Assembly: GCA_965248265.1 (NCBI GenBank)
Contig: CBDFJF010000001.1
Location: forward strand, 768,001-832,000
Direction: 5' to 3'
DNA: 64,000 nucleotides
Source: Candidatus Latescibacterota bacterium
GTDB taxonomy: Bacteria > Latescibacterota > UBA2968 > UBA8231
A program made the position numbers and the translations under genes. Under the pieces are notes generated by a model, which had not been told where the DNA came from, ran no database searches, and saw only the letters and a program-made list of their open reading frames with translations. The stretch's first letter is position 1; each line of letters opens with the position of its first letter. Positions 16,472 through 29,462 of the stretch are shown piece by piece.

Positions 16472-17224
16472 CTAGAACCTTTCTTGCAGCAGCCGCGTGA
16501 TCGCGTTCGGCTTGCTGTAGTACGCACGTGTTGCAGCATCTGGATGTGCCCAGAGCCGCTTGGGAACGATCGTGTGGTTACTTATCGGCGGGCTCGAGGC
16601 ACGACCGCAATAGATGTGGACAGTGCGGCGCTCGACGTCACTGCGGCGAACGTTGCCCCCGTGGAACATGCCCGCGTTGAACACAACTGCCGTCCCACGT
16701 GGACCCTCGATATGGTGGGCCGCATCCAGCTCATAGTGCGCCAGCGGTGCCAGCTCGTCGCCGACAGCTGAGCCCGGCAGTACACTGAAGGTGTGCGTCG
16801 ACTCATCGACGTCGCTCAGGTAAAACGCGACGGATACGTAGTGAGAGGCAAAGGCTGGCGGTGATCCCAGCTCCGGCCAGCCATTTCCGTCTCGGTGCCA
16901 GTGGCAGTATGGCTTGCCGGCGTAGGGCTTGCGAATGTGTACCGTATGCTCTTCGGCGCGTAGGTGGGATCCGAGAATACCCTCGAGCAGTGGCATCAGA
17001 GTCGGCGGTCTCATTGTGACGTCCATCTCCTTGTATGCCAGCAGCGCGTGCGCGTTGAGGATTACGTGGCCGTCTTCCCGTTCGATCCAGAACGGCGTTT
17101 CGGCCGCCAGGTCGCGATCGATGGCAGCGTTGATGGCATCGACTTCCTCGACGCTCAAAGTGTCCAGCACAACAACGTAACCGAACTTGCGGTAGGTATA
17201 GAGCTGTTCCTGTGTGGATGTCAT
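16472..17224 (-). CDS. Phytanoyl-CoA dioxygenase (PhyH) family Fe(II)/2OG oxygenase
   Basis: YRKFGYVVV, WHRD, SVLPGS, MFHGG..R motifs. Confidence 0.88.
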   Translation of the reverse strand: MTSTQEQLYTYRKFGYVVVLDTLSVEEVDAINAAIDRDLAAETPFWIEREDGHVILNAHALLAYKEMDVTMRPPTLMPLLEGILGSHLRAEEHTVHIRKPYAGKPYCHWHRDGNGWPELGSPPAFASHYVSVAFYLSDVDESTHTFSVLPGSAVGDELAPLAHYELDAAHHIEGPRGTAVVFNAGMFHGGNVRRSDVERRTVHIYCGRASSPPISNHTIVPKRLWAHPDAATRAYYSKPNAITRLLQERF

Positions 17225-20047: not shown

Positions 20048-21601
20048 ATGAGAGAACCTACACCGCAGTACCGCGTCATCTTCAACTGGGACGGCCAGCC
20101 GTTCGGCCAGGGCGAGTACCCACAGTCCGTCGACCGGCTGATGCATGGCATCTACGACTCCATCGAAGGGACGCAGGTCGACGCTATGTTCTGGAGCATC
20201 GGAAGCCACGAAGCGGAGTGGCCGTCTGAGGTCCACGAGCGGCTCGGTGACTCCGAGAACCGCACGTACGACAGCCTCCGCGGTATGCGGCACAGTGAGA
20301 GCGTCCGCGCCATGTTCGAACGGGGTGAGAACCCGTACCAGGCGATGGTCGACCGCGGCCACGAGCTGGGTATGCAGGTCTACGTCTCGATGCGGATGAA
20401 TGACAACCACTTCTACGTCGACAAGGCTGAGGACATCGCGAGGCTGGGCAAGGGAACCCAACTCCGTCGGGACCATCCCGAGTGGCTGCTGGACGTCGAC
20501 GACGTAGCCGAGTGGCGCCCCATCGGCTCGTGGAACATGGCGATCCCCGAGGTCCGGGAGCACCGGCTCTCATATATCCGCGAGGCGTGTCTCCAGGCAG
20601 ACTGGGACGGCGTCGAGCTCGACTGGCAGCGGCATCCGTTCCACTTTCCGCAGAACTATGGCTACCGACTCCGGTACGCACTCACCGACCTCCAGCGGGC
20701 AATCAGACAGGTGGCGGACGAGATCGCGGAGGAACGGGGTAGGCCCTTCTACGTCGCGTCCCGCGTGGCGACGACCCTCGAGTCGTGCAGGAACATTGGC
20801 TACGACGTCGAAAAGTGGGTCAACGACGACCTGACCGACATCATCATCGGCGCCGGAGGGTCGGGCACCGACCCGGGGTTCGAAGTCGCGGAGTTCAAGA
20901 AGCTGACCGAAGACACCGGCATCAGGCTATATGGAGGCTTCGACAGCCTTGGCCGTCACGAGGCGAACCGCCTCGTCTCGCACTCCGAATGGCGGGACGG
21001 CTGGCTCCGAGCCGTCGCCCAGGGCTACTACGATCAGGGAGCCGACGGCCTATACACGTTCAATTGGTTCCCCAAAAAGCAAGATTGGCGCGGGCTGCTC
21101 AGTACGATCGGGTCGCCGGATACTCTGAAGGGCCGCGACAAGATCTACACCGCTCTGCATCGCGGGCCCACTTACCTGGACGGCGCCGGGGGTGGCGCCA
21201 TCAACGACAGGATCTACGGCGAGACGTCGACCGTACTCTTCCGGACCCTGACCGGGGACGGACCGAAGTTCACGATCGGCATCCACGAAGACGTCGCCGC
21301 TTCCGAGGCCATCGAGCTGCACATCGAGATGCAGCACTTCTTGCCCGAGGACTCGGTCGACGTCCTACTTGACGGTGAGAAACTCGCGGACCCGATTATT
21401 CGTGACGTCGCGGAAGACGACCCGAACGACCCCGCAGACGTCTCCGAGAACAAGTGGCTCGTCTGGACGCTCGACGCAGAGCAGGCAGCCAAGGGCGATC
21501 ACCAGGTGAAGGTCATTTTGGTCAATCACGACTCGCGGATACGCCCGCCATTGATCGTGAACCACGTCGAGATTCACGTCCGGTACGAGGGGACTTCGTG
21601 A
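20048..21601 (+). CDS. GHL10-like (glycoside hydrolase-like family 10) protein
   Basis: IFNWDG, SMRMNDNH, DGVELDWQR, GADGLYTFN; distant paralogue of 37463..39019. Confidence 0.75.
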   Translation: MREPTPQYRVIFNWDGQPFGQGEYPQSVDRLMHGIYDSIEGTQVDAMFWSIGSHEAEWPSEVHERLGDSENRTYDSLRGMRHSESVRAMFERGENPYQAMVDRGHELGMQVYVSMRMNDNHFYVDKAEDIARLGKGTQLRRDHPEWLLDVDDVAEWRPIGSWNMAIPEVREHRLSYIREACLQADWDGVELDWQRHPFHFPQNYGYRLRYALTDLQRAIRQVADEIAEERGRPFYVASRVATTLESCRNIGYDVEKWVNDDLTDIIIGAGGSGTDPGFEVAEFKKLTEDTGIRLYGGFDSLGRHEANRLVSHSEWRDGWLRAVAQGYYDQGADGLYTFNWFPKKQDWRGLLSTIGSPDTLKGRDKIYTALHRGPTYLDGAGGGAINDRIYGETSTVLFRTLTGDGPKFTIGIHEDVAASEAIELHIEMQHFLPEDSVDVLLDGEKLADPIIRDVAEDDPNDPADVSENKWLVWTLDAEQAAKGDHQVKVILVNHDSRIRPPLIVNHVEIHVRYEGTS

Positions 21602-21849
21602 CGAAGTACCGCGTCGCCATCCGAGTCCTTCGATCGCTACATGCAGTCATACGAAGGCATCGCCGAAACCTACGATGGTGGGACGCAGCTGCTCATGTGG
21701 GGCTGGCGGCGCTGGAACATGCTACAACCGTACAGCGACGCTGGCGGTGGCGTCTTCGGGGCGTTGTTGCATGACTCGCCCGGGGGGGTGGATTTTCCGT
21801 GTCGGCATCAAGCTTTGAGCGTCCGTCGGAGTCCTGATCCGATGGGCGC

Positions 21850-21935
21850 CTATCGCAACATTCAACAGCTTCCTCTGCAGCAGCTGCCCGTCCGCCGCTA
21901 GCTGGTAGACGTACACGCCCGTTGCAAGGTCTGAT
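21850..21935 (-). pseudogene. 3' remnant of a FlgD/T9SS-like C-terminal tail
   Basis: DLATGVYVYQLAADGQLLQRKLL/MLR*. Confidence 0.6.
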
Positions 21936-21963
21936 TGGCTCTGTTTCGTAAAACGGCATAGGT

Positions 21964-22016
21964 GATCTGTATTATAGTAAAGTTTCAGGGACCAAATCTT
22001 TACTATAGTGCAGATC
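21964..22016. repeat. AT-rich 19-bp inverted repeat with 15-nt loop
   Basis: GATCTGTATTATAGTAAAG ... CTTTACTATAGTGCAGATC (2 mismatches). Confidence 0.8.
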
Positions 22017-22321
22017 CGCAGGTTCAGTTCTGCGAAAACATGCGTGGTACGACCGGCTCGACCGAACAGCGGTGATGAGGCGCAGTGGACCCACGCTCGC
22101 GGCCTGATCGCAGACGCCGATTAAACGTTCCGACGTTTCGGATTCGTGAAAACCGAACGTCGGAACATCTACCGGGTAGACCTCCGATCGTCACACTCTA
22201 CCTTATATACACGCCAACCTAATCATGGCGGCACAAATTTCGTACTTTGGGGTCACTATCAGACTGAACCTGTCGTTTTCAAGGTTTTTCCACCCCAACT
22301 GGGGTGTCAATCGCTGTACAG

Positions 22322-22402
22322 TTCTTCCTGTCACCGCTGGCCAACTTCGTCAGCGGTCAGATTCTTCGAGTTGATGGTGGTGGCCAGCTATGTGCCGCCT
22401 GA
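22322..22402 (+). pseudogene. SDR oxidoreductase 3' fragment
   Basis: FFLSPLANFVSGQILRVDGGGQLCAA*. Confidence 0.7.
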
Positions 22403-22403
22403 T

Positions 22404-22817
22404 CTATGAGGTCGGCGGCTGTAACAGCCGTTCCTCTTCCTCATACCAGGCGTCGACACGGTCCCAATAGAATGAGACGTAATCGGCAATATCCGGGCAC
22501 TCTTCGACCGGTTTCGGGTAGTTCCATACCGCATTCTCGGACACCCTGTCTCCCACTCTCACAGACCAGTACCTGGCCTCACCTTTCCAAGGTCAGGTGC
22601 TGCCGTGGTTCGTGGGTTCCAGCAGATCCATTCGCACGTCGCTCACGGGAAAGTAGTACGCCGGCAGGTGATGGGTCTCATTCATCACGAGAGCATTCGT
22701 GCTGTCGGCAATTGTTTCGTCACCGAATAGGACACGCATGCGTCGAGGGGCCGGCTTCATTACAACTGTCTGGGTCTGGGTTCGCGAAACAGGGTTCGAG
22801 TCTTCGTCTGTCGGCAT
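22404..22817 (-). CDS. DUF427 protein with in-frame UGA (candidate selenoprotein, 137 aa)
   Basis: GGAGG RBS; YYFPVSDVRMDLLEPTNHGST-U-PWKGEARYWSV..ENAVWNYPKP..IADYVSFYWDRVDAWYEEEE; TGA at 22593-22595. Confidence 0.85.
22563..22579 (-). promoter_or_regulatory. Candidate bacterial SECIS hairpin
   Basis: AGGCCA-GGUAC-UGGUCU stem-loop starting 13 nt after the UGA; CCAGGUACUGG resembles the E. coli fdhF apex GCAGGUCUGC. Confidence 0.65.
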
Positions 22818-22975
22818 ATTGCACCTCCGAGTTATGCCTTTATGCCACGTCTCACGCTCGGTCTGCATCTGTGGGTCGGCCGTGTCTCCGTAAGCGAGTC
22901 TATCTCACCGGTTACATTCAGACAACACGTAACCGCAGGTGACCGCCCTACATCGACCACGGAGGAATGGTGCCC

Positions 22976-23092
22976 ATGCTGGACCAATCGGATCTGTACA
23001 TCAGTGGACGGGGCGGCTATCACACCTATCGCATCCCGGCAATGGTAGTCTCTGCCCGGGGTACGGTTCTGGCTTTCTGCGAAGGGCGAAAA
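22976..23092 (+). pseudogene. Sialidase (GH33) 5' fragment
   Basis: SGRGGYHTYRIPAMVVSARGTVLAFCEGRK (RIP motif). Confidence 0.8.
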
Positions 23093-23227
23093 GGAGCAAA
23101 GAAGACTTTTTGCCAGTACGGACTTACCGCTCCCGCCCGGGCCGTCAATGGCGACCATTGTGTGTTTTTTTGATCGTAGCCACTTCTGAAGCGCCGAGGT
23201 GATGGCATCGAGATCGAAGTGGGTCAT
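23093..23227 (-). pseudogene. Uridine-kinase-like P-loop 5' fragment
   Basis: MVAIDGPGGSGKSVLAKSL. Confidence 0.7.
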
Positions 23228-23454
23228 AGGATGGGTGCAGGCGTCAGTCGTTTTCCTTCAGACGATGGCGAGGCTGTCTACCTTCGTCGGCATCATGAAT
23301 ATCAAAGAGGTCTGAATATCGTCACGGTCTGAGAGTCCCATGCTTTCCTTCTGCTCCCTGACCCAATCCGACACGATTCGAGCGCTTCAATCTCAACCAT
23401 CGATTCAAGTATCGCACAGAAAACTCGCGGTTCGTCGAGGGCCTCGAACGGCAA

Positions 23455-23739
23455 TTGTCGAATCTGAGAGCAGTCTGCTTTCTCCTCATCGTGTCACCAC
23501 ACCGAATCGAAGAGAGGATGAGATACAGAGCGTCGAGGACGGGACAACCATTGGACGAGTCGACCCTGCAAGATCAGATCCAATCGTGGATCGCCAAACA
23601 AGAGCAGTACGTTCAGCACCAATCGCAGGCCTCTATGCCAACGGTGACCATTAATACTGACGATAGAGACTGGGTTGCGTATGCGAAGCAGATCCTTGAA
23701 ACCACGAGCGAAAGCGCGCGAGATGCGCCCAACGCTTGA
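23455..23739 (+). pseudogene. 3' fragment of a probable P-loop kinase-like gene
   Basis: IEERMRYR..TVTINTDDRDWVAYAKQIL; no N-terminus. Confidence 0.35.
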
Positions 23740-23853
23740 AATTCTCCGCGAACGTGTGAAATCACAGGCCATCGCTGCGTTTGTCTCCCTAAAACGGAGT
23801 GCAAATCCGCAGGGCATTGCTCTCCATATTCCCGCACCCGTCCATTCTTCCAT

Positions 23854-24839: not shown

Positions 24840-25307
24840 AGATTGAGTAGGTATTGGCGGTGAAGTTGTGCTGTGATTGAGCTTCGCCGGGTCTGTACAA
24901 GCGGGACCTTTGTTACGGATAAAATCTGCAGCTCTCTCGCACGTTCGCTTGGCAACCCCAATGTGTCACTGCTGTGCTGCTTCAGATCCTCGGCGCCCCG
25001 TGTTGGTGACCGGCGGTAATCGTTTGCCCACAACGATGGACATCTCCTCCCCCATGCGGCTCGTTCGCCACTCTGTCTTGTTCACCCCCTGTGAATTGCC
25101 AATCTTAATTGACCTGACCGTCCGGACGGACTGGGATTGCATCTCATTGATCCAGCATCCAAGGAGGTGGCCCATGGACAGGATCATGCTCGCGGGCCTC
25201 ATCGTAAACATCGGCGCTGATCGAGCCGAGCCTCGGCGAGGTTTGTCCCCAGGCTACTACTGTTTCTCTCGACGGAGGTGGTGAAGTGCCTGTTATTGAG
25301 GTGGGTC

Positions 25308-26315
25308 ATGATTGAACGACGTGATTTTCTAAAGACTCTGGTTGCCGCGCTTCCAGGCGTCGTGATTCCCTTTGGATGCGGCAGCAAGGCGCAGGACAAA
25401 CTGGGTCAGGTGCTGCCCAAACGCGTGCTGGGCCGCACCGGCGACGCGGTGACGATGCTGGGGATTGGCGGCTACCACATCGGCTGGACGACGGAGCGGG
25501 ATGCAGAAGCCGTGATTGAAACGGCGCTCGCCGGCGGTGTGCGCTTCTTCGATACCGCGGAAGGTTACGGGGACGGCCGGAGCGAGCAGCGCTATGGCAA
25601 GTACTTGGTACCAAAGGCCCGCGAACAGGTCTTCATTATGACTAAAACCGGCGCCAAGGATGCCGATACCGCGCAGCAGCACCTCGACGCGTCTTTGACG
25701 CGTTTGAATACGGACTATCTGGATCTCTGGCAGGTGCACGGGATCGGCGACCCTGATGATGTGGACCGACGTATCGATGGGGGTGTCCTGGATGTGTTCG
25801 AGCGCGCCAAGGCTTCTGGCAAGGCGCGTTTCATCGGGTTTACCGGGCATAGCAACCCAGCGGCTCATTTGCGCATGCTGGAGCGGACCGCCGACAGCGA
25901 CATGTTTGATACCTGCCAGATGCCGGTGAATCTGCTCGACCCCAGCTACCACAGCTTCATCGAACAGGTCGCCCCGATCTTGCAGCCGCGCAACATCGCG
26001 CTGCTGGCCATGAAGACGCTGGCAGACGGCCGCTTCTTCTCGAAGAAGGTCAGGCTAGACAAGGTCCAATGGGAAACGGACAACCCGGTCGTCCCGGACC
26101 GAGTGAGTGTCCGCCAGGCCCTTCATTTTGTGTGGTCGCTGCCCGTTAGCGTCCTGATTACTGGGGCTGAGAACGCGGATTTGATGCGCGAAAAGATCGG
26201 CCTCGCCCAGGATTTCGTGGCGCTGACCCAGCAGGACCGCCAGGCGCTCATCGACAAGGTGGCCGACTTGGCCGAGGATGGCAAGATCGAGTATTTCAAG
26301 AGCATTAGCTCATAA
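25308..26315 (+). CDS. Aldo/keto reductase with Tat signal
   Basis: MIERRDFLK; FFDTAEGYG, LNTDYLDLWQVH, GKARFIGFTGH, AMKTLADG. Confidence 0.92.
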   Translation: MIERRDFLKTLVAALPGVVIPFGCGSKAQDKLGQVLPKRVLGRTGDAVTMLGIGGYHIGWTTERDAEAVIETALAGGVRFFDTAEGYGDGRSEQRYGKYLVPKAREQVFIMTKTGAKDADTAQQHLDASLTRLNTDYLDLWQVHGIGDPDDVDRRIDGGVLDVFERAKASGKARFIGFTGHSNPAAHLRMLERTADSDMFDTCQMPVNLLDPSYHSFIEQVAPILQPRNIALLAMKTLADGRFFSKKVRLDKVQWETDNPVVPDRVSVRQALHFVWSLPVSVLITGAENADLMREKIGLAQDFVALTQQDRQALIDKVADLAEDGKIEYFKSISS

Positions 26316-26885: not shown

Positions 26886-29462
26886 TCAAGCTCTTCCCAA
26901 CGTACCGCTCACCGTGGTTCCATCCGGTCGCAGGAAGCTGTAAGAGACAGGGCCCGTCGCTGGCTCGCCAGTAACCTGCCTGGACTCGGGGATAGGTTCC
27001 CCTTCCGGCCAGATCACGTAACGCTCCCCCGCATCAGTATCGAATTGCAGGAGTTCGCCGGTCAGTTGCGTGGACTTACTGTCCGAGTGCTCTAGCTGGC
27101 ATGGCTTCCCTTCCCACGGATTTCGCATCCTGCACAACTCCCCCATCCGCGACTCGATTTCGACAAACTCGATGCGACCGGCCTGGATCGATGCGCTGAT
27201 GAGAAATCCGCCCCGGACTAACAGACGAAAAGAAGCATCCCATTCCCTGGGCCAGGCTGGAAAGAGGCGAATGACCTCTGGCAGCCCCGGCTCCGCGGAA
27301 ACGCTCTGCACCAGGGCCTCATTGAGGGCCATGCTGATGCAACCGAGAGGCTCAATGGAGGGATCCGTGATCCCCTCGAACAGGCTGAAGCCGTTCGGCA
27401 AGGGACCGCCTCCTTGGTTGAAGGTTGCGTAGTAGGCTGCCAGCAGCGCCGGAAGCTCCTCCCCACGTCCGAGTCTCGAGCCCATGATCGGCGTGTGGCC
27501 AACGCTGGTGAGACCCCACATCTTGCCGGCGACCAGGTCGGCTCGCAACGAGTTGAGCTCGGCCAACCGGCGGATGATGCGCTCGGTCTCCGGCTCCATC
27601 GACTCCTGAGTCCAGATCTCGAACGGGAAAACGCCGAACAGGGATTCCTCGTGCGGGCGGTCCTTGTCCCGAGGGTGGTCGACGGCCCCGACATGACCCA
27701 AAGACCACAGGTCCGGCGCGACGACGGAGTGACTCTCCGGATCGCTCCCCATCGGATAGGGCGCCAGATGATCCAGGAACTCAGTCCAACTGGCGCGCAG
27801 TTCAGCGTCGACATCGAGAATCTCGGCGGCGCGGATGGCCAATGGCGCCGTCCCTCGGATCGCCGTCAGGTCCAGCAGACCGTCGTTGGTGCCCCATCCT
27901 CCTTCAAACTGATTCAGGCCATGGAGATGATAGAGACCGTCCTCCTCTTTCCTGGCCAGTCCCCGATAGAACTCGACGGTCTCCCGCAGCAGTGGATAGG
28001 CATGCGAACGCAACCAGCTCTCGTCCCCCGTGTACCGGTACCGCCACCAGGCATGCTTGGCGATCTTCGTACCAGACGTCGCGATATGGCTGACCCATGA
28101 ATAGCGGCCGGCCGCCTGCGCCGGAAACTCCTCCCGGTCATGAAAACGGCTGGTATCGAGGGCACGCAGCCCGCCGTCATAACAATTGTAGGAAACGGCC
28201 CGGGCTGACAGTTCCATGCTCGTCTTTCTGCCCAACCAGACATCCTCGTACTCGGCAGCCACATCGTCCGGCAACACCACCGGACCGTCGAACTGACCGC
28301 TCTCGAGGAAGTACGCCCCGCGCGACCCGGTGCGCTGCAGACCAGCCGCAACCGCATTCGGCAACTGGCCCACGTACATGTTGAAAAACGGATCGGCCAA
28401 TTCGACTGCGTCGGCCGCGTGCAGCGGATAGTAGGAGATCTGGGTCGTCCACACCCAGAACTGGGACCCCCAGTACGTCGTATCTCCCTCCGTGAGAAAG
28501 ATCGAGCCGTTCCATTTTGCCGGCAGCGGACCGCGTGAGCTGCTGGCCATGTAATAGAGCTGCAGATTGCGCACGCACTGCATGAAGTCGGCGACGCCGT
28601 CGTCGCTCGTTAGATGCACGAAGGTTCTCGACCACAACTCGGCCCACCAGGATGCATGGACCGCCCTCATCTCGTCGTAGGTCTGGCTCGAAGCTGCGTC
28701 CAGCAGCGCGCGGGTTGCAGCTGACAGATCCAAATCCGGATCCCATGAGGCGGCGCTGGCGATCAGAATCATTCGTTTCCCCGACGCAGCCGGAACACGG
28801 ATGCAGTGGCAGCTGTCGGAGGCGACCTCTGGCTCTCCCTCGCCGACAATCCTCGAGGCCACTGCCGAGCCACAGTAGTAGTCGGCCTCCGTGAATCGCT
28901 GAACCAGCACTGCCGTGCCTGGTTGATGGCCGAATTCGTAGCGCGCTTCGTGATTCCCGTTCACGACGAGTAGATCGCGCCACATCGCCAGATCCACTCG
29001 CAGCGGCCGGGGCTGCTGCCTGGTGTCGTCGATCTCCAGCGCGAGGACGTCCAGCCCGGCAGCAACGAAGCACCGGACCCGTATGCCATCCCCCTCGATC
29101 ACCTCCTCGGCCTGATGAAGAGACAGGTGTTGCTTGAAGGTGCTGCCCGAGAAGACATCACCACCCACATCGATACAGATCGAGCCACATCCGCCCCAGT
29201 AGTCCGTCGGCCCGGCTTTCAACCCCTTGTGGTTCCCGTTGACGGCAAAGACGTCGCTCCGATTGATCTGGAAGCGAACGGCACCAGGTGTCGTCCATAC
29301 CATCGTACCCATACACCCGTTGCCGATCGGATGGCCTTCACGTCCGTGGTCGACCGGCTTCTGGTAGACCAAATCCGCATGGGACACGAGTGCGCTGTGA
29401 TCTGGTTGCATGACCGATCGAGTCATACCTGGCTCCTTTGGGGTCAACGGCCTATCTCGCAT
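26886..29462 (-). CDS. GH95-like glycoside hydrolase (alpha-L-fucosidase-like)
   Basis: PIGNGCMG, YYMASSSRG, WRYRYTGDESWLRSHAYPLL, EALVQS, LFPAWPREWDASFRL; start probably 29426. Confidence 0.75.
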   Translation of the reverse strand: MRDRPLTPKEPGMTRSVMQPDHSALVSHADLVYQKPVDHGREGHPIGNGCMGTMVWTTPGAVRFQINRSDVFAVNGNHKGLKAGPTDYWGGCGSICIDVGGDVFSGSTFKQHLSLHQAEEVIEGDGIRVRCFVAAGLDVLALEIDDTRQQPRPLRVDLAMWRDLLVVNGNHEARYEFGHQPGTAVLVQRFTEADYYCGSAVASRIVGEGEPEVASDSCHCIRVPAASGKRMILIASAASWDPDLDLSAATRALLDAASSQTYDEMRAVHASWWAELWSRTFVHLTSDDGVADFMQCVRNLQLYYMASSSRGPLPAKWNGSIFLTEGDTTYWGSQFWVWTTQISYYPLHAADAVELADPFFNMYVGQLPNAVAAGLQRTGSRGAYFLESGQFDGPVVLPDDVAAEYEDVWLGRKTSMELSARAVSYNCYDGGLRALDTSRFHDREEFPAQAAGRYSWVSHIATSGTKIAKHAWWRYRYTGDESWLRSHAYPLLRETVEFYRGLARKEEDGLYHLHGLNQFEGGWGTNDGLLDLTAIRGTAPLAIRAAEILDVDAELRASWTEFLDHLAPYPMGSDPESHSVVAPDLWSLGHVGAVDHPRDKDRPHEESLFGVFPFEIWTQESMEPETERIIRRLAELNSLRADLVAGKMWGLTSVGHTPIMGSRLGRGEELPALLAAYYATFNQGGGPLPNGFSLFEGITDPSIEPLGCISMALNEALVQSVSAEPGLPEVIRLFPAWPREWDASFRLLVRGGFLISASIQAGRIEFVEIESRMGELCRMRNPWEGKPCQLEHSDSKSTQLTGELLQFDTDAGERYVIWPEGEPIPESRQVTGEPATGPVSYSFLRPDGTTVSGTLGRA

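What the first reader, a model, noticed from the sequence alone, without database searches (positions are those of the whole stretch)
22404..22817. DUF427 gene with UGA at the conserved Cys plus SECIS-like hairpin: candidate selenoprotein
Seen: the ORF caller stops at TGA 22593-22595, but the same frame continues as intact DUF427 sequence (HGST-U-PWKGEARYW...AVWNYPKP...YVSFYWDRVDAWYEEEE) to TAG at 22404, with a GGAGG RBS and no other lesion. Thirteen nt after the UGA a stem-loop AGGCCA-GGUAC-UGGUCU begins, and its apex CCAGGUACUGG resembles E. coli fdhF SECIS GCAGGUCUGC. Known: DUF427 has a conserved CP(W/Y/F)KG Cys, and Sec replaces redox-active Cys with the SECIS immediately 3'. Inference: this is a 137-aa selenoprotein, implying a redox or catalytic role for this DUF. 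I cannot tell whether Sec-DUF427 is already catalogued. The hairpin overlaps conserved codons and the region contains many pseudogenes, so a nonsense mutation remains possible.
Basis: partly seen in the sequence, partly recalled or inferred. Interest (0 to 1): 0.8.

Follow-up and report, generated by a model that had tools for sequence, protein, structure and literature searches.

The report
Selenocysteine-coding DUF427 gene
A small gene of unknown function has what looks like a stop codon in its middle, but that codon is almost certainly read as the rare amino acid selenocysteine, which makes it a member of a widespread selenoprotein family that the published lists I could check do not name.

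Summary
On the minus strand, 22817..22404 is an intact 137-codon DUF427 gene (PF04248, E 3.4e-35). It has one in-frame TGA (22595..22593) and a GGAGG site before the ATG.

The selenoprotein reading is strongly supported:
- The genome has tRNA-Sec, SelA, SelB and a SelD that itself contains Sec.
- The TGA sits where 40 of 79 homologues have Cys. The same column is TGA in 14 of those 79, and in 80 of 80 pattern-selected loci from other species.
- dN/dS is 0.05-0.15 on both sides of the TGA.
- Six codons after it (nt +13..+30) do not vary synonymously in 12 of 12 orthologues, except the third base of the last. Cys-form controls show no such freeze.
- Contigs of three studies keep the TGA.

Weak points: the hairpin is short and not unusually stable, no selenium incorporation has been shown, and the function is unknown.

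The family name and accessions are absent from the main text of the selenoprotein catalogues I searched; supplements were closed.

This scan has already reported Sec-DUF427 on other DNA (seven earlier notes). New here is a single-domain copy, sister to the N-terminal domain of the tandem forms of Chloroflexota.

The parts
22404..22817 (-). Whole gene: 137 codons (22817..22407) plus TAG stop (22406..22404). Single-domain DUF427 protein with Sec at residue 75.
   Evidence: The AlphaFold model has mean pLDDT 78.8. It matches DUF427 crystal structure 3DJM with TM 0.89 normalised to the target and rmsd 1.6.
22824..22828 (-). GGAGG ribosome-binding site, six bases before the ATG at 22817.
   Evidence: Read. 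The start region aligns with the ATG of the two closest orthologues.
22461..22739 (-). DUF427 domain (PF04248), profile positions 1-93 of 93.
   Evidence: It is the only DUF427 match in the genome, with 1 TGA inside.
22593..22595 (-). In-frame TGA read as selenocysteine (residue 75). It aligns with Cys of the CP(W/Y/F)KG motif in homologues.
   Evidence: Unchanged in contigs of runs X1, X5 and X6.
22555..22580 (-). 26-nt block (nt +13..+38 after UGA) identical in the three single-domain orthologues although dS between them is about 1. It contains the candidate SECIS.
   Evidence: run of 26 invariant columns; dS 0.99-1.28; the diverged relative in X6 has no difference in 22555-22589.
22563..22579 (-). 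Candidate SECIS hairpin AGGCCA(G)-G(GUA)C-(C)UGGUCU, nt +14..+30 after UGA.
   Evidence: Local fold -8.9 kcal/mol, z -1.96, 5 of 200 shuffles as good. Codons +5..+9 are invariant in 12 of 12 orthologues. Against: it is not the MFE structure of the 63-nt context and is weaker than synonymous recodings (z +1.24).
22497..22499 (-). TGC for Cys107 (ECPD). A second Cys kept in all 12 class-A Sec forms and a possible resolving partner.
   Evidence: It is absent from the three more distant Sec forms L055, L066 and L087, and present in 8 of 40 Cys forms, so the link to Sec is not general.

Best explanation
The gene encodes a 137-residue single-domain DUF427 protein. Its UGA at codon 75 is decoded as selenocysteine by the bacterial Sec pathway.

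Proposed mechanism: SelD makes selenophosphate. SelA converts Ser-tRNA(Sec) to Sec-tRNA(Sec). SelB delivers it to the ribosome when it binds a short mRNA hairpin (the SECIS) that starts 14 nt after the UGA, inside the coding sequence.

Shown here:
- The machinery genes are present.
- The UGA is shared with many diverged homologues, at a column that is Cys in most others.
- The sequence after the UGA evolves as a translated protein.
- The nucleotides of the hairpin are constrained beyond what the protein sequence requires.

Inferred:
- This hairpin is the element that SelB binds.
- Selenium is actually incorporated.
- Sec75 is the reactive centre of the domain, most likely a redox-active or nucleophilic residue.

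The substrate is unknown.
For: (1) Machinery in the same genome:
- tRNA-Sec, 68.9 bits against a cut-off of 47; ARAGORN calls SeC with anticodon TCA.
- SelA, 472 bits.
- SelB, 332.8 bits against a cut-off of 242.
- SelD, 352 bits, with its own in-frame TGA in the motif TCG-U-AAK.

(2) Sec/Cys pair: among 79 related loci, the column is TGA in 14, Cys in 40, Ser in 15, Asp in 5 and other in 5.

(3) A degenerate DNA pattern for U-P-x-K-G-[DE]-A-x-Y-W hit 106 stretches in species-representative genomes.
- All 80 of the 80 loci returned show DUF427 sequence on both sides of the TGA.
- Their record labels are Dehalococcoidia/SAR202, Nitrospinota, Acidimicrobiia, Tectomicrobia, Pseudomonadota and Gemmatimonadetes.

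(4) Nei-Gojobori dN/dS in 8 pairs:
- Upstream of the TGA: 0.07-0.16 in the 7 pairs where it could be computed.
- Downstream: 0.05-0.15 in all 8 pairs.
- dS was 0.9-2.8.

(5) Codons +5..+9 (GAG GCC AGG TAC TGG) are identical in 12 of 12 class-A orthologues, and +10 is TCT in 10 and TCC in 2. Other invariant Ala and Arg columns use 3-5 codons.

(6) Mean synonymous codon entropy inside +5..+11 against outside:
- Sec classes A-E: 0.13/0.90, 0.36/0.95, 0.00/0.55, 0.46/0.82, 0.06/0.56.
- Four Cys/Ser control groups: 1.01/0.89, 0.78/0.86, 0.74/0.92, 0.45/0.66. All 40 Cys forms pooled: 1.35/1.37.

(7) Each Sec class has its own hairpin centred on the Tyr-Trp codons. In classes B and C, 95.2% of cells pair. 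2 of 6 pairs change on both sides. 0 of 500 shuffles reach the covariation score, and slid controls pair in 20-50% of cells.

(8) TGA is unchanged in contigs of runs from three studies. One diverged relative has synonymous changes in both flanking codons.

(9) TGA ends 25 of 43 ORFs of at least 250 aa in the window, so it is not reassigned genome-wide.
Against: - The hairpin is small. The 63-nt context folds otherwise, with z -0.49.
- Against synonymous recodings, this gene's window is less stable than average (z +1.24). Sec forms as a group are only slightly more stable than non-Sec forms (median z -0.66 against -0.18).
- No Rfam family matched.
- In class A the stem never varies, so it shows conservation, not covariation.
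- SelA does not discriminate: it is in 12 of 14 genomes with Sec forms but also in 36 of 50 with Cys, Ser or other forms.
- The position is Ser or Asp in 20 of 79 relatives, so the residue is not essential to every DUF427.
- The second Cys is not kept in all Sec forms.
- The gene stands alone in a low-G+C stretch with no recognised promoter or terminator.
- No conserved neighbours hint at a function.
- There is no direct evidence of expression or of selenium in the protein.
Confidence: 0.88

Rival explanations
1. The TGA is a nonsense mutation in a decaying gene, so the locus is a pseudogene.
For: The gene lies in a lower-G+C stretch without long ORFs and next to a P-loop-like fragment that scores below Pfam cut-offs. 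One relative (L029) does carry a TAG elsewhere in its DUF427.
Against: The same TGA at the same column is in 14 of 79 relatives and in 80 of 80 pattern hits. dN/dS downstream is 0.05-0.15 at dS of about 1 or more. There is no other lesion and the Pfam profile is fully covered.
Confidence: 0.03
2. UGA is a true stop. The cell makes a 74-residue N-terminal fragment, with or without a separate 52-residue product starting at GTG 22562.
For: This is what a standard ORF caller gives. Public protein collections hold such truncated pieces of relatives: hits of 79-83% identity cover only 31-54% of the query.
Against: The eleven codons between the TGA and the GTG (PWKGEARYWSV) are the most conserved motif of the family and would not be translated. 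The DUF427 fold spans both halves. No ribosome-binding site was seen before GTG 22562.
Confidence: 0.04
3. UGA is read through by something other than the Sec system, such as near-cognate Trp or Cys insertion or a locally changed code.
For: The comparative evidence shows translation past the UGA, not the identity of the residue inserted.
Against: The full Sec machinery is present, and SelD itself needs it. The column is Cys in relatives, the usual partner of Sec. A Sec-form-specific nucleotide constraint lies directly downstream. TGA is the commonest stop in the window.
Confidence: 0.04
4. The TGA is a sequencing or assembly error for TGC or TGT.
For: None found.
Against: Contigs of runs X1, X5 and X6 (three studies) cover 22593-22595 and list no other letter there. 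Orthologues in two other genomes of the same family carry TGA.
Confidence: 0.01

Closest known systems
Bacterial selenoprotein genes with an in-frame UGA and a coding-region SECIS read by SelB (prototype recalled from memory: E. coli fdhF)
   Same: There is an in-frame UGA at a column that is Cys in homologues. A hairpin starts 14 nt downstream, with G-rich apical loop bases (GGUAC). SelA, SelB, SelC and SelD are in the genome. The coding sequence continues downstream under purifying selection.
   Different: The protein family is different and of unknown function. The stem is shorter (6-7 bp) and not thermodynamically outstanding. The likeness to the fdhF loop is recalled, not tested. No Rfam SECIS model matched.
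Cys-containing DUF427 proteins (Pfam PF04248; crystal structure 3DJM of Rhodobacter sphaeroides)
   Same: Full-length Pfam match. Sequence match to 3DJM at E 1e-11, with Cys aligned to the Sec column. The model superposes on 3DJM at TM 0.89 normalised to the target and rmsd 1.6.
   Different: Sec replaces the Cys. This copy also has a second Cys (ECPD) that 3DJM lacks.
Tandem Sec-DUF427 proteins of marine Chloroflexota/Dehalococcoidia (about 250 aa: N-terminal domain with Sec, C-terminal domain with Cys), seen here in loci L036-L044 and in earlier notes of this scan
   Same: 67-74% amino-acid identity to their N-terminal domain. Same PWKGEARYW motif, same frozen codons and same hairpin.
   Different: The window's protein stops about 13 residues after the first domain and has no second domain. 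So do its two orthologues in the same bacterial family, and the genome holds no other DUF427. In a quick tree the three single-domain copies form a clade (SH-aLRT 92) that is sister to the Chloroflexota clade (91).
MsrB / SelR, the methionine-R-sulfoxide reductase whose mammalian form is a selenoprotein. It shares the beta-tent fold with DUF427 according to PMC4287342 (passages read).
   Same: According to that paper, DUF427 and MsrB share the beta-tent topology. My fold search found other beta-tent members, Mis18/Yippee domains, at TM 0.68 normalised to the target. Both have forms with Sec in place of a Cys.
   Different: There is no sequence similarity. The paper states that DUF427 lacks the zinc site. 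No MsrB chain is among the matches printed. Whether the Sec positions are equivalent could not be tested.

Membership tests
Bacterial selenoprotein gene | In-frame UGA aligned with Cys in homologues (Sec/Cys pair) | tested here: met
   Column of residue 75: Cys in 40 and TGA in 14 of 79 related loci. Cys forms exist in the same bacterial family.
Bacterial selenoprotein gene | UGA kept at the same position in orthologues of other species | tested here: met
   Two genomes of another genus of the same family. 80 of 80 pattern-selected loci of other species.
Bacterial selenoprotein gene | Sequence downstream of the UGA evolves as translated protein | tested here: met
   dN/dS downstream is 0.05-0.15 in 8 pairs. 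The Pfam profile is covered across the TGA.
Bacterial selenoprotein gene | selA, selB, selC (tRNA-Sec) and selD in the genome | tested here: met
   All four are above the curated cut-offs.
Bacterial selenoprotein gene | SECIS stem-loop shortly after the UGA (recalled consensus: apical loop 16-37 nt downstream, with a G in it) | tested here: inconclusive
   For: a hairpin at +14..+30 with loop GGUAC or GUA. Synonymous sites are frozen in Sec forms only. Covariation is seen in sister classes B and C. Against: it is not the MFE structure and not more stable than recodings, and there is no Rfam match. I could not run bSECISearch.
Bacterial selenoprotein gene | Selenium shown in the protein | not testable with these tools
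   Needs 75Se labelling or mass spectrometry.
DUF427 (Pfam PF04248, NTP_transf_9) | Match to the family HMM above the gathering score | tested here: met
   120.2 bits against a cut-off of 22.1, profile 1-93 of 93.
DUF427 (Pfam PF04248, NTP_transf_9) | Fold of the solved member 3DJM | tested here: met
   Foldseek E 1e-9, TM 0.89 normalised to the target, rmsd 1.6. The model's mean pLDDT is 78.8.
MsrB / SelR | Sequence or close structural match to MsrB | tested here: not met
   No SelR/MsrB family in the Pfam scan and none in NCBIfam. No MsrB chain among the Foldseek matches printed. Only the general beta-tent relation from PMC4287342 remains.
Selenoneine/ergothioneine (NHISS) gene clusters, in which COG2343/DUF427 is co-encoded in 5.7% (PMC13674229, Table 1, passage read) | DUF427 gene next to SenA/EgtB-type genes | tested here: not met
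   In this genome the sen locus is on the other contig. tblastn of its SenA, SenB, SelD and selenate-binding protein found no hit in any of 159 DUF427 loci with 3-8 kb of context.

The most novel reading that the evidence does not exclude
Sec-DUF427 is a widespread selenoenzyme family that has not been catalogued. It occurs in about a hundred species-level genomes of SAR202/Dehalococcoidia, Nitrospinota, sponge-associated Acidimicrobiia, Tectomicrobia and others. The Sec marks the catalytic residue of a beta-tent domain that works, like MsrB, as a chalcogen-oxide or disulfide reductase on a small substrate. The single-domain copy in this window shows that the Sec-bearing domain alone is a functional unit that moves between phyla.
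Probability: 0.3. Interest if true: 0.7.

Novelty: new member of a known kind. Interest (0 to 1): 0.55.

Why it matters
DUF427 is a large family that has had a crystal structure since 2008 but has no known function. A natural Cys-to-Sec replacement nearly always marks a reactive residue, usually a redox-active one. This finding therefore names the residue to mutate and the kind of chemistry to assay.

It also adds a family that gene callers systematically truncate. In the protein collection searched, the closest relatives appear only as fragments, and none is named a selenoprotein. Selenoproteome counts for marine SAR202, Nitrospinota and sponge symbionts are therefore too low by at least this gene.

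For annotation of this genome, the two short ORFs at 22404-22868 should be merged into one selenoprotein gene.

Tried and rejected
- Whole-window thermodynamics as a SECIS test. The MFE of the 63-nt context (z -0.49) and the MFE against synonymous recodings did not single out the hairpin. I relied on synonymous-site conservation with Cys-form controls instead.
- Rfam scan at E up to 10: only chance-level miRNA and snoRNA rows.
- SelA presence as a discriminator: 12 of 14 against 36 of 50, so not informative. One search was over the size limit. The repeat took 50 of the 65 non-Sec loci, so L098-L112 were not examined.
- Function from gene context:
  - Neighbours differ between the three single-domain orthologues and the Chloroflexota loci (Pirin, TldD/PmbA, methyltransferases).
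  - No neighbour cluster spans more than two Sec classes in 80 loci.
- Link to selenoneine or ergothioneine clusters: 0 hits in 159 loci.
- Resolving-Cys idea: Cys107 is kept only in class A.
- Expression: no RNA holder is listed among 22 runs. All four runs laid were contigs, so nothing can be said on transcription.
- Promoter and terminator scan: one weak promoter-like site downstream of the gene, no terminator, and nothing above the shuffles.
- NCBIfam: no model for this protein.
- The careful tree search did not finish, so only the quick tree is reported.

Full report
WHAT IS THERE

On the minus strand, an ATG at 22817 follows GGAGG (22828..22824) after six bases. The frame runs 137 codons to TAG 22406..22404 and is interrupted once, by TGA 22595..22593. 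A standard ORF list breaks it into 91-aa and 52-aa pieces.

Read through, the protein matches the whole DUF427 profile (PF04248, 120 bits, positions 1-93 of 93). It is the only DUF427 in the 7.3-Mb, 92%-complete genome. NCBIfam has no model for it.

An AlphaFold model built from a 54-row alignment (mean pLDDT 78.8) superposes on the DUF427 crystal structure 3DJM (TM 0.89 normalised to the target, rmsd 1.6). It matches Mis18/Yippee domains more weakly. That fits the published placement of DUF427 in the beta-tent fold together with MsrB and GFA (PMC4287342, passages read).

CAN THE ORGANISM MAKE SELENOPROTEINS?

Yes. The genome has:
- tRNA-Sec (68.9 bits; ARAGORN: SeC, anticodon TCA);
- SelA (472 bits);
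- SelB (332.8 bits, cut-off 242);
- one SelD (352 bits) that carries an in-frame TGA in TCG-U-AAK.

TGA is otherwise the commonest stop of long ORFs in the window (25 of 43), so the code is not reassigned.

IS THE TGA SHARED?

In 61 genomes of the same class, 9 have a DUF427 match. Besides the window's own genome, two genomes of another genus of the same family have an orthologue (about 70% amino-acid identity) with TGA in the same column, HGST-U-PWKGEARYW.

A search of one genome per species gave 79 related loci. The column is TGA in 14, Cys in 40, Ser in 15, Asp in 5 and other in 5.

A degenerate DNA pattern for U-P-x-K-G-[DE]-A-x-Y-W hit 106 stretches. Of these, 80 were returned as loci, and all 80 show DUF427 sequence on both sides of the TGA. 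Their records are labelled Dehalococcoidia/SAR202, Nitrospinota, Acidimicrobiia (Candidatus Poriferisodalis), Tectomicrobia, Pseudomonadota and Gemmatimonadetes. I did not see the other 26 stretches.

IS THE PART AFTER THE TGA TRANSLATED?

Nei-Gojobori dN/dS was computed in eight pairs among twelve close orthologues. Upstream of the TGA it is 0.07-0.16 in the seven pairs where it could be computed. Downstream it is 0.05-0.15 in all eight. dS is about 0.9-2.8. This excludes a recent pseudogene and a true stop.

IS THERE A SECIS?

Alone it folds to -8.9 kcal/mol (z -1.96; 5 of 200 shuffles fold as well).

The thermodynamic evidence is weak:
- The 63-nt context folds differently (z -0.49).
- Against synonymous recodings, this gene's window is less stable than average (z +1.24).
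- Sec forms as a group differ only a little from non-Sec forms (median z -0.66 against -0.18).
- Rfam gave nothing.

The comparative evidence is strong:
- In the three single-domain orthologues, a run of 26 columns (nt +13..+38) is identical, although dS between them is about 1.
- In 12 of 12 class-A orthologues, codons +5..+9 are GAG GCC AGG TAC TGG. Other invariant Ala and Arg columns use 3-5 codons.
- Mean synonymous entropy inside +5..+11 against outside, for five Sec classes, is 0.13/0.90, 0.36/0.95, 0.00/0.55, 0.46/0.82 and 0.06/0.56.
- For four Cys or Ser control groups it is 1.01/0.89, 0.78/0.86, 0.74/0.92 and 0.45/0.66. For all 40 Cys forms pooled it is 1.35/1.37. One control group has the same EARYW residues.
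- The search pattern left all synonymous positions free, so this is not an artefact of selection.

Each class has its own stem around the Tyr-Trp codons, in different registers. In classes B and C together (31 sequences), 95.2% of cells pair and 2 of 6 pairs change on both sides. No shuffle of 500 reaches the covariation score, and slid controls pair in 20-50% of cells. Relatedness inflates that shuffle test. In class A the stem never varies, which is conservation, not covariation.

IS THE BASE CALL RIGHT?

Logan contigs of runs from three studies cover 22593-22595 and list no other letter there. A relative in run X6, with 26 differences over 252 bases, has synonymous changes in both codons flanking the TGA and none in 22555-22589. 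X1 may be the source sample. No RNA run was listed.

ARCHITECTURE AND ORIGIN

The Chloroflexota, Tectomicrobia and Nitrospinaceae forms are tandem DUF427 proteins of about 230-260 residues from the likely start codon. The N-terminal domain carries Sec and the C-terminal domain carries Cys. The window's gene, its two family-mates and L055 are single-domain.

The window's protein is 67-74% identical to the N-terminal domains of the class-A tandem forms in that alignment.

A quick IQ-TREE was run on 93 rows and 106 columns, with SH-aLRT support only; the careful search did not finish. Ser and Asp forms, class E and F rows and truncated windows were left out. In it the three single-domain copies form a clade (92), sister to the Chloroflexota class-A clade (91), and the two join at 90. 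Sec classes A-D sit in separate places among Cys forms. This suggests transfer between phyla and several Cys/Sec switches, but no direction can be given.

The gene and its flanks (about 21600-23850) have 53-58% G+C, against 60-65% in the neighbouring genes.

FUNCTION

Function is unknown.
- Neighbours are not conserved.
- A 2026 paper lists COG2343/DUF427 among genes co-encoded with EgtB/SenA-type enzymes, at 5.7% (PMC13674229, Table 1, passage read).
- This genome has a sen locus on its other contig: SenA at 493.6 bits, SenB at 398.5 bits, the Sec-containing SelD, and a putative selenate-binding protein at 370 bits.
- However, none of 159 DUF427 loci of this subfamily has such a neighbour, so I do not claim that link.
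- Cys107 (ECPD) is kept in all 12 class-A forms but not in the three more distant Sec forms L055, L066 and L087.

My best guess is a selenol-based redox or nucleophilic catalyst on a beta-tent scaffold. This is inference from the general rule that Sec replaces reactive Cys.

IS IT KNOWN?

Full-text searches gave the following:
- 'DUF427' with 'selenoprotein': two papers, neither relevant.
- 'DUF427' alone: 10 papers held, 9 listed.
- 'PF04248': 2 papers.
- 'COG2343': 1 paper.
- None of these describes a Sec form.

The table of known and predicted prokaryotic selenoprotein families in a May 2026 review holds none of DUF427, PF04248, NTP_transf or IPR007361 (PMC13188914, searched by terms). The passages that term searches returned from the 2022 review, deep-Sep and BSepDB do not name it either. 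The BSepDB family list is in a supplement that I could not open.

In the protein collection, the closest full-length hits are Cys forms of at most 63% identity. Hits of 79-83% identity cover only 31-54% of the query, and no source name says selenoprotein.

This scan has reported Sec-DUF427 before, on seven other genomes. I reproduced the core of those claims on my own loci.

UNPUBLISHED GENOMES

Three genomes flagged unpublished (loci L045, L048, L076) enter these results:
- the Cys and Ser counts;
- the non-Sec comparison set of the folding test;
- the control groups;
- the SelA control;
- for L045 and L048, the tree.

No Sec-form evidence rests on them.

VERDICT

This is a real selenoprotein gene (confidence 0.88). 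It is a further member of an apparently uncatalogued Sec-DUF427 family, and its function remains open.

Noticed in passing
Own genome, other contig: L219 512-2805 (minus strand) and L022 1396-3497 (plus strand): A selenoneine-type locus. It has SenA (NF041186, 493.6 bits, cut-off 420) and SenB (TIGR04348, 398.5 bits). These are divergent from the genome's only SelD, which contains Sec, and are followed by a putative selenate ABC-transporter binding protein (TIGR04553, 370 bits). The organism seems to use selenium both in proteins and in a small molecule.
   Followed up: partly
window 21600-23850: A stretch with lower G+C (53-58%, against 60-65% beside it) and no long ORF other than the DUF427 gene. 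ORF 22832-23227 (minus strand) has only sub-threshold P-loop/NB-ARC-like hits. It may be a remnant of acquired DNA.
   Followed up: partly
L036-L044, L066, L087 (related loci): Most Sec-DUF427 genes are tandem: Sec in the first domain, and Cys (MCPYKGPARYW or RCPYKG) in the second. Only one of the two equivalent positions uses Sec.
   Followed up: partly
Genomes behind L045-L097: SelA is present in 36 of 50 genomes whose DUF427 homologue has Cys, Ser or another residue. That looks high for bacteria in general. It may reflect sampling, or a real tie between this subfamily and selenium users.
   Followed up: no
L029 (genome G013): A Cys-form DUF427 in the same bacterial family has an in-frame TAG at the conserved Trp of AVW-Y. 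It is probably a real pseudogene or a sequencing error, in contrast with the TGA case.
   Followed up: no
L127-L187, Acidimicrobiia-labelled loci (class E): These Sec forms have a different downstream hairpin, GCUACU-GGUC-AGUAGC, at nt +20..+35. Its four-base loop is the one I recall from the E. coli fdhF SECIS.
   Followed up: partly
window 26886-29462 (minus strand), 25278-26315, 16472-17224: The surrounding genes are ordinary: a GH95-like glycoside hydrolase, an aldo/keto reductase and a PhyH-family dioxygenase. None is linked to the DUF427 gene.
   Followed up: no
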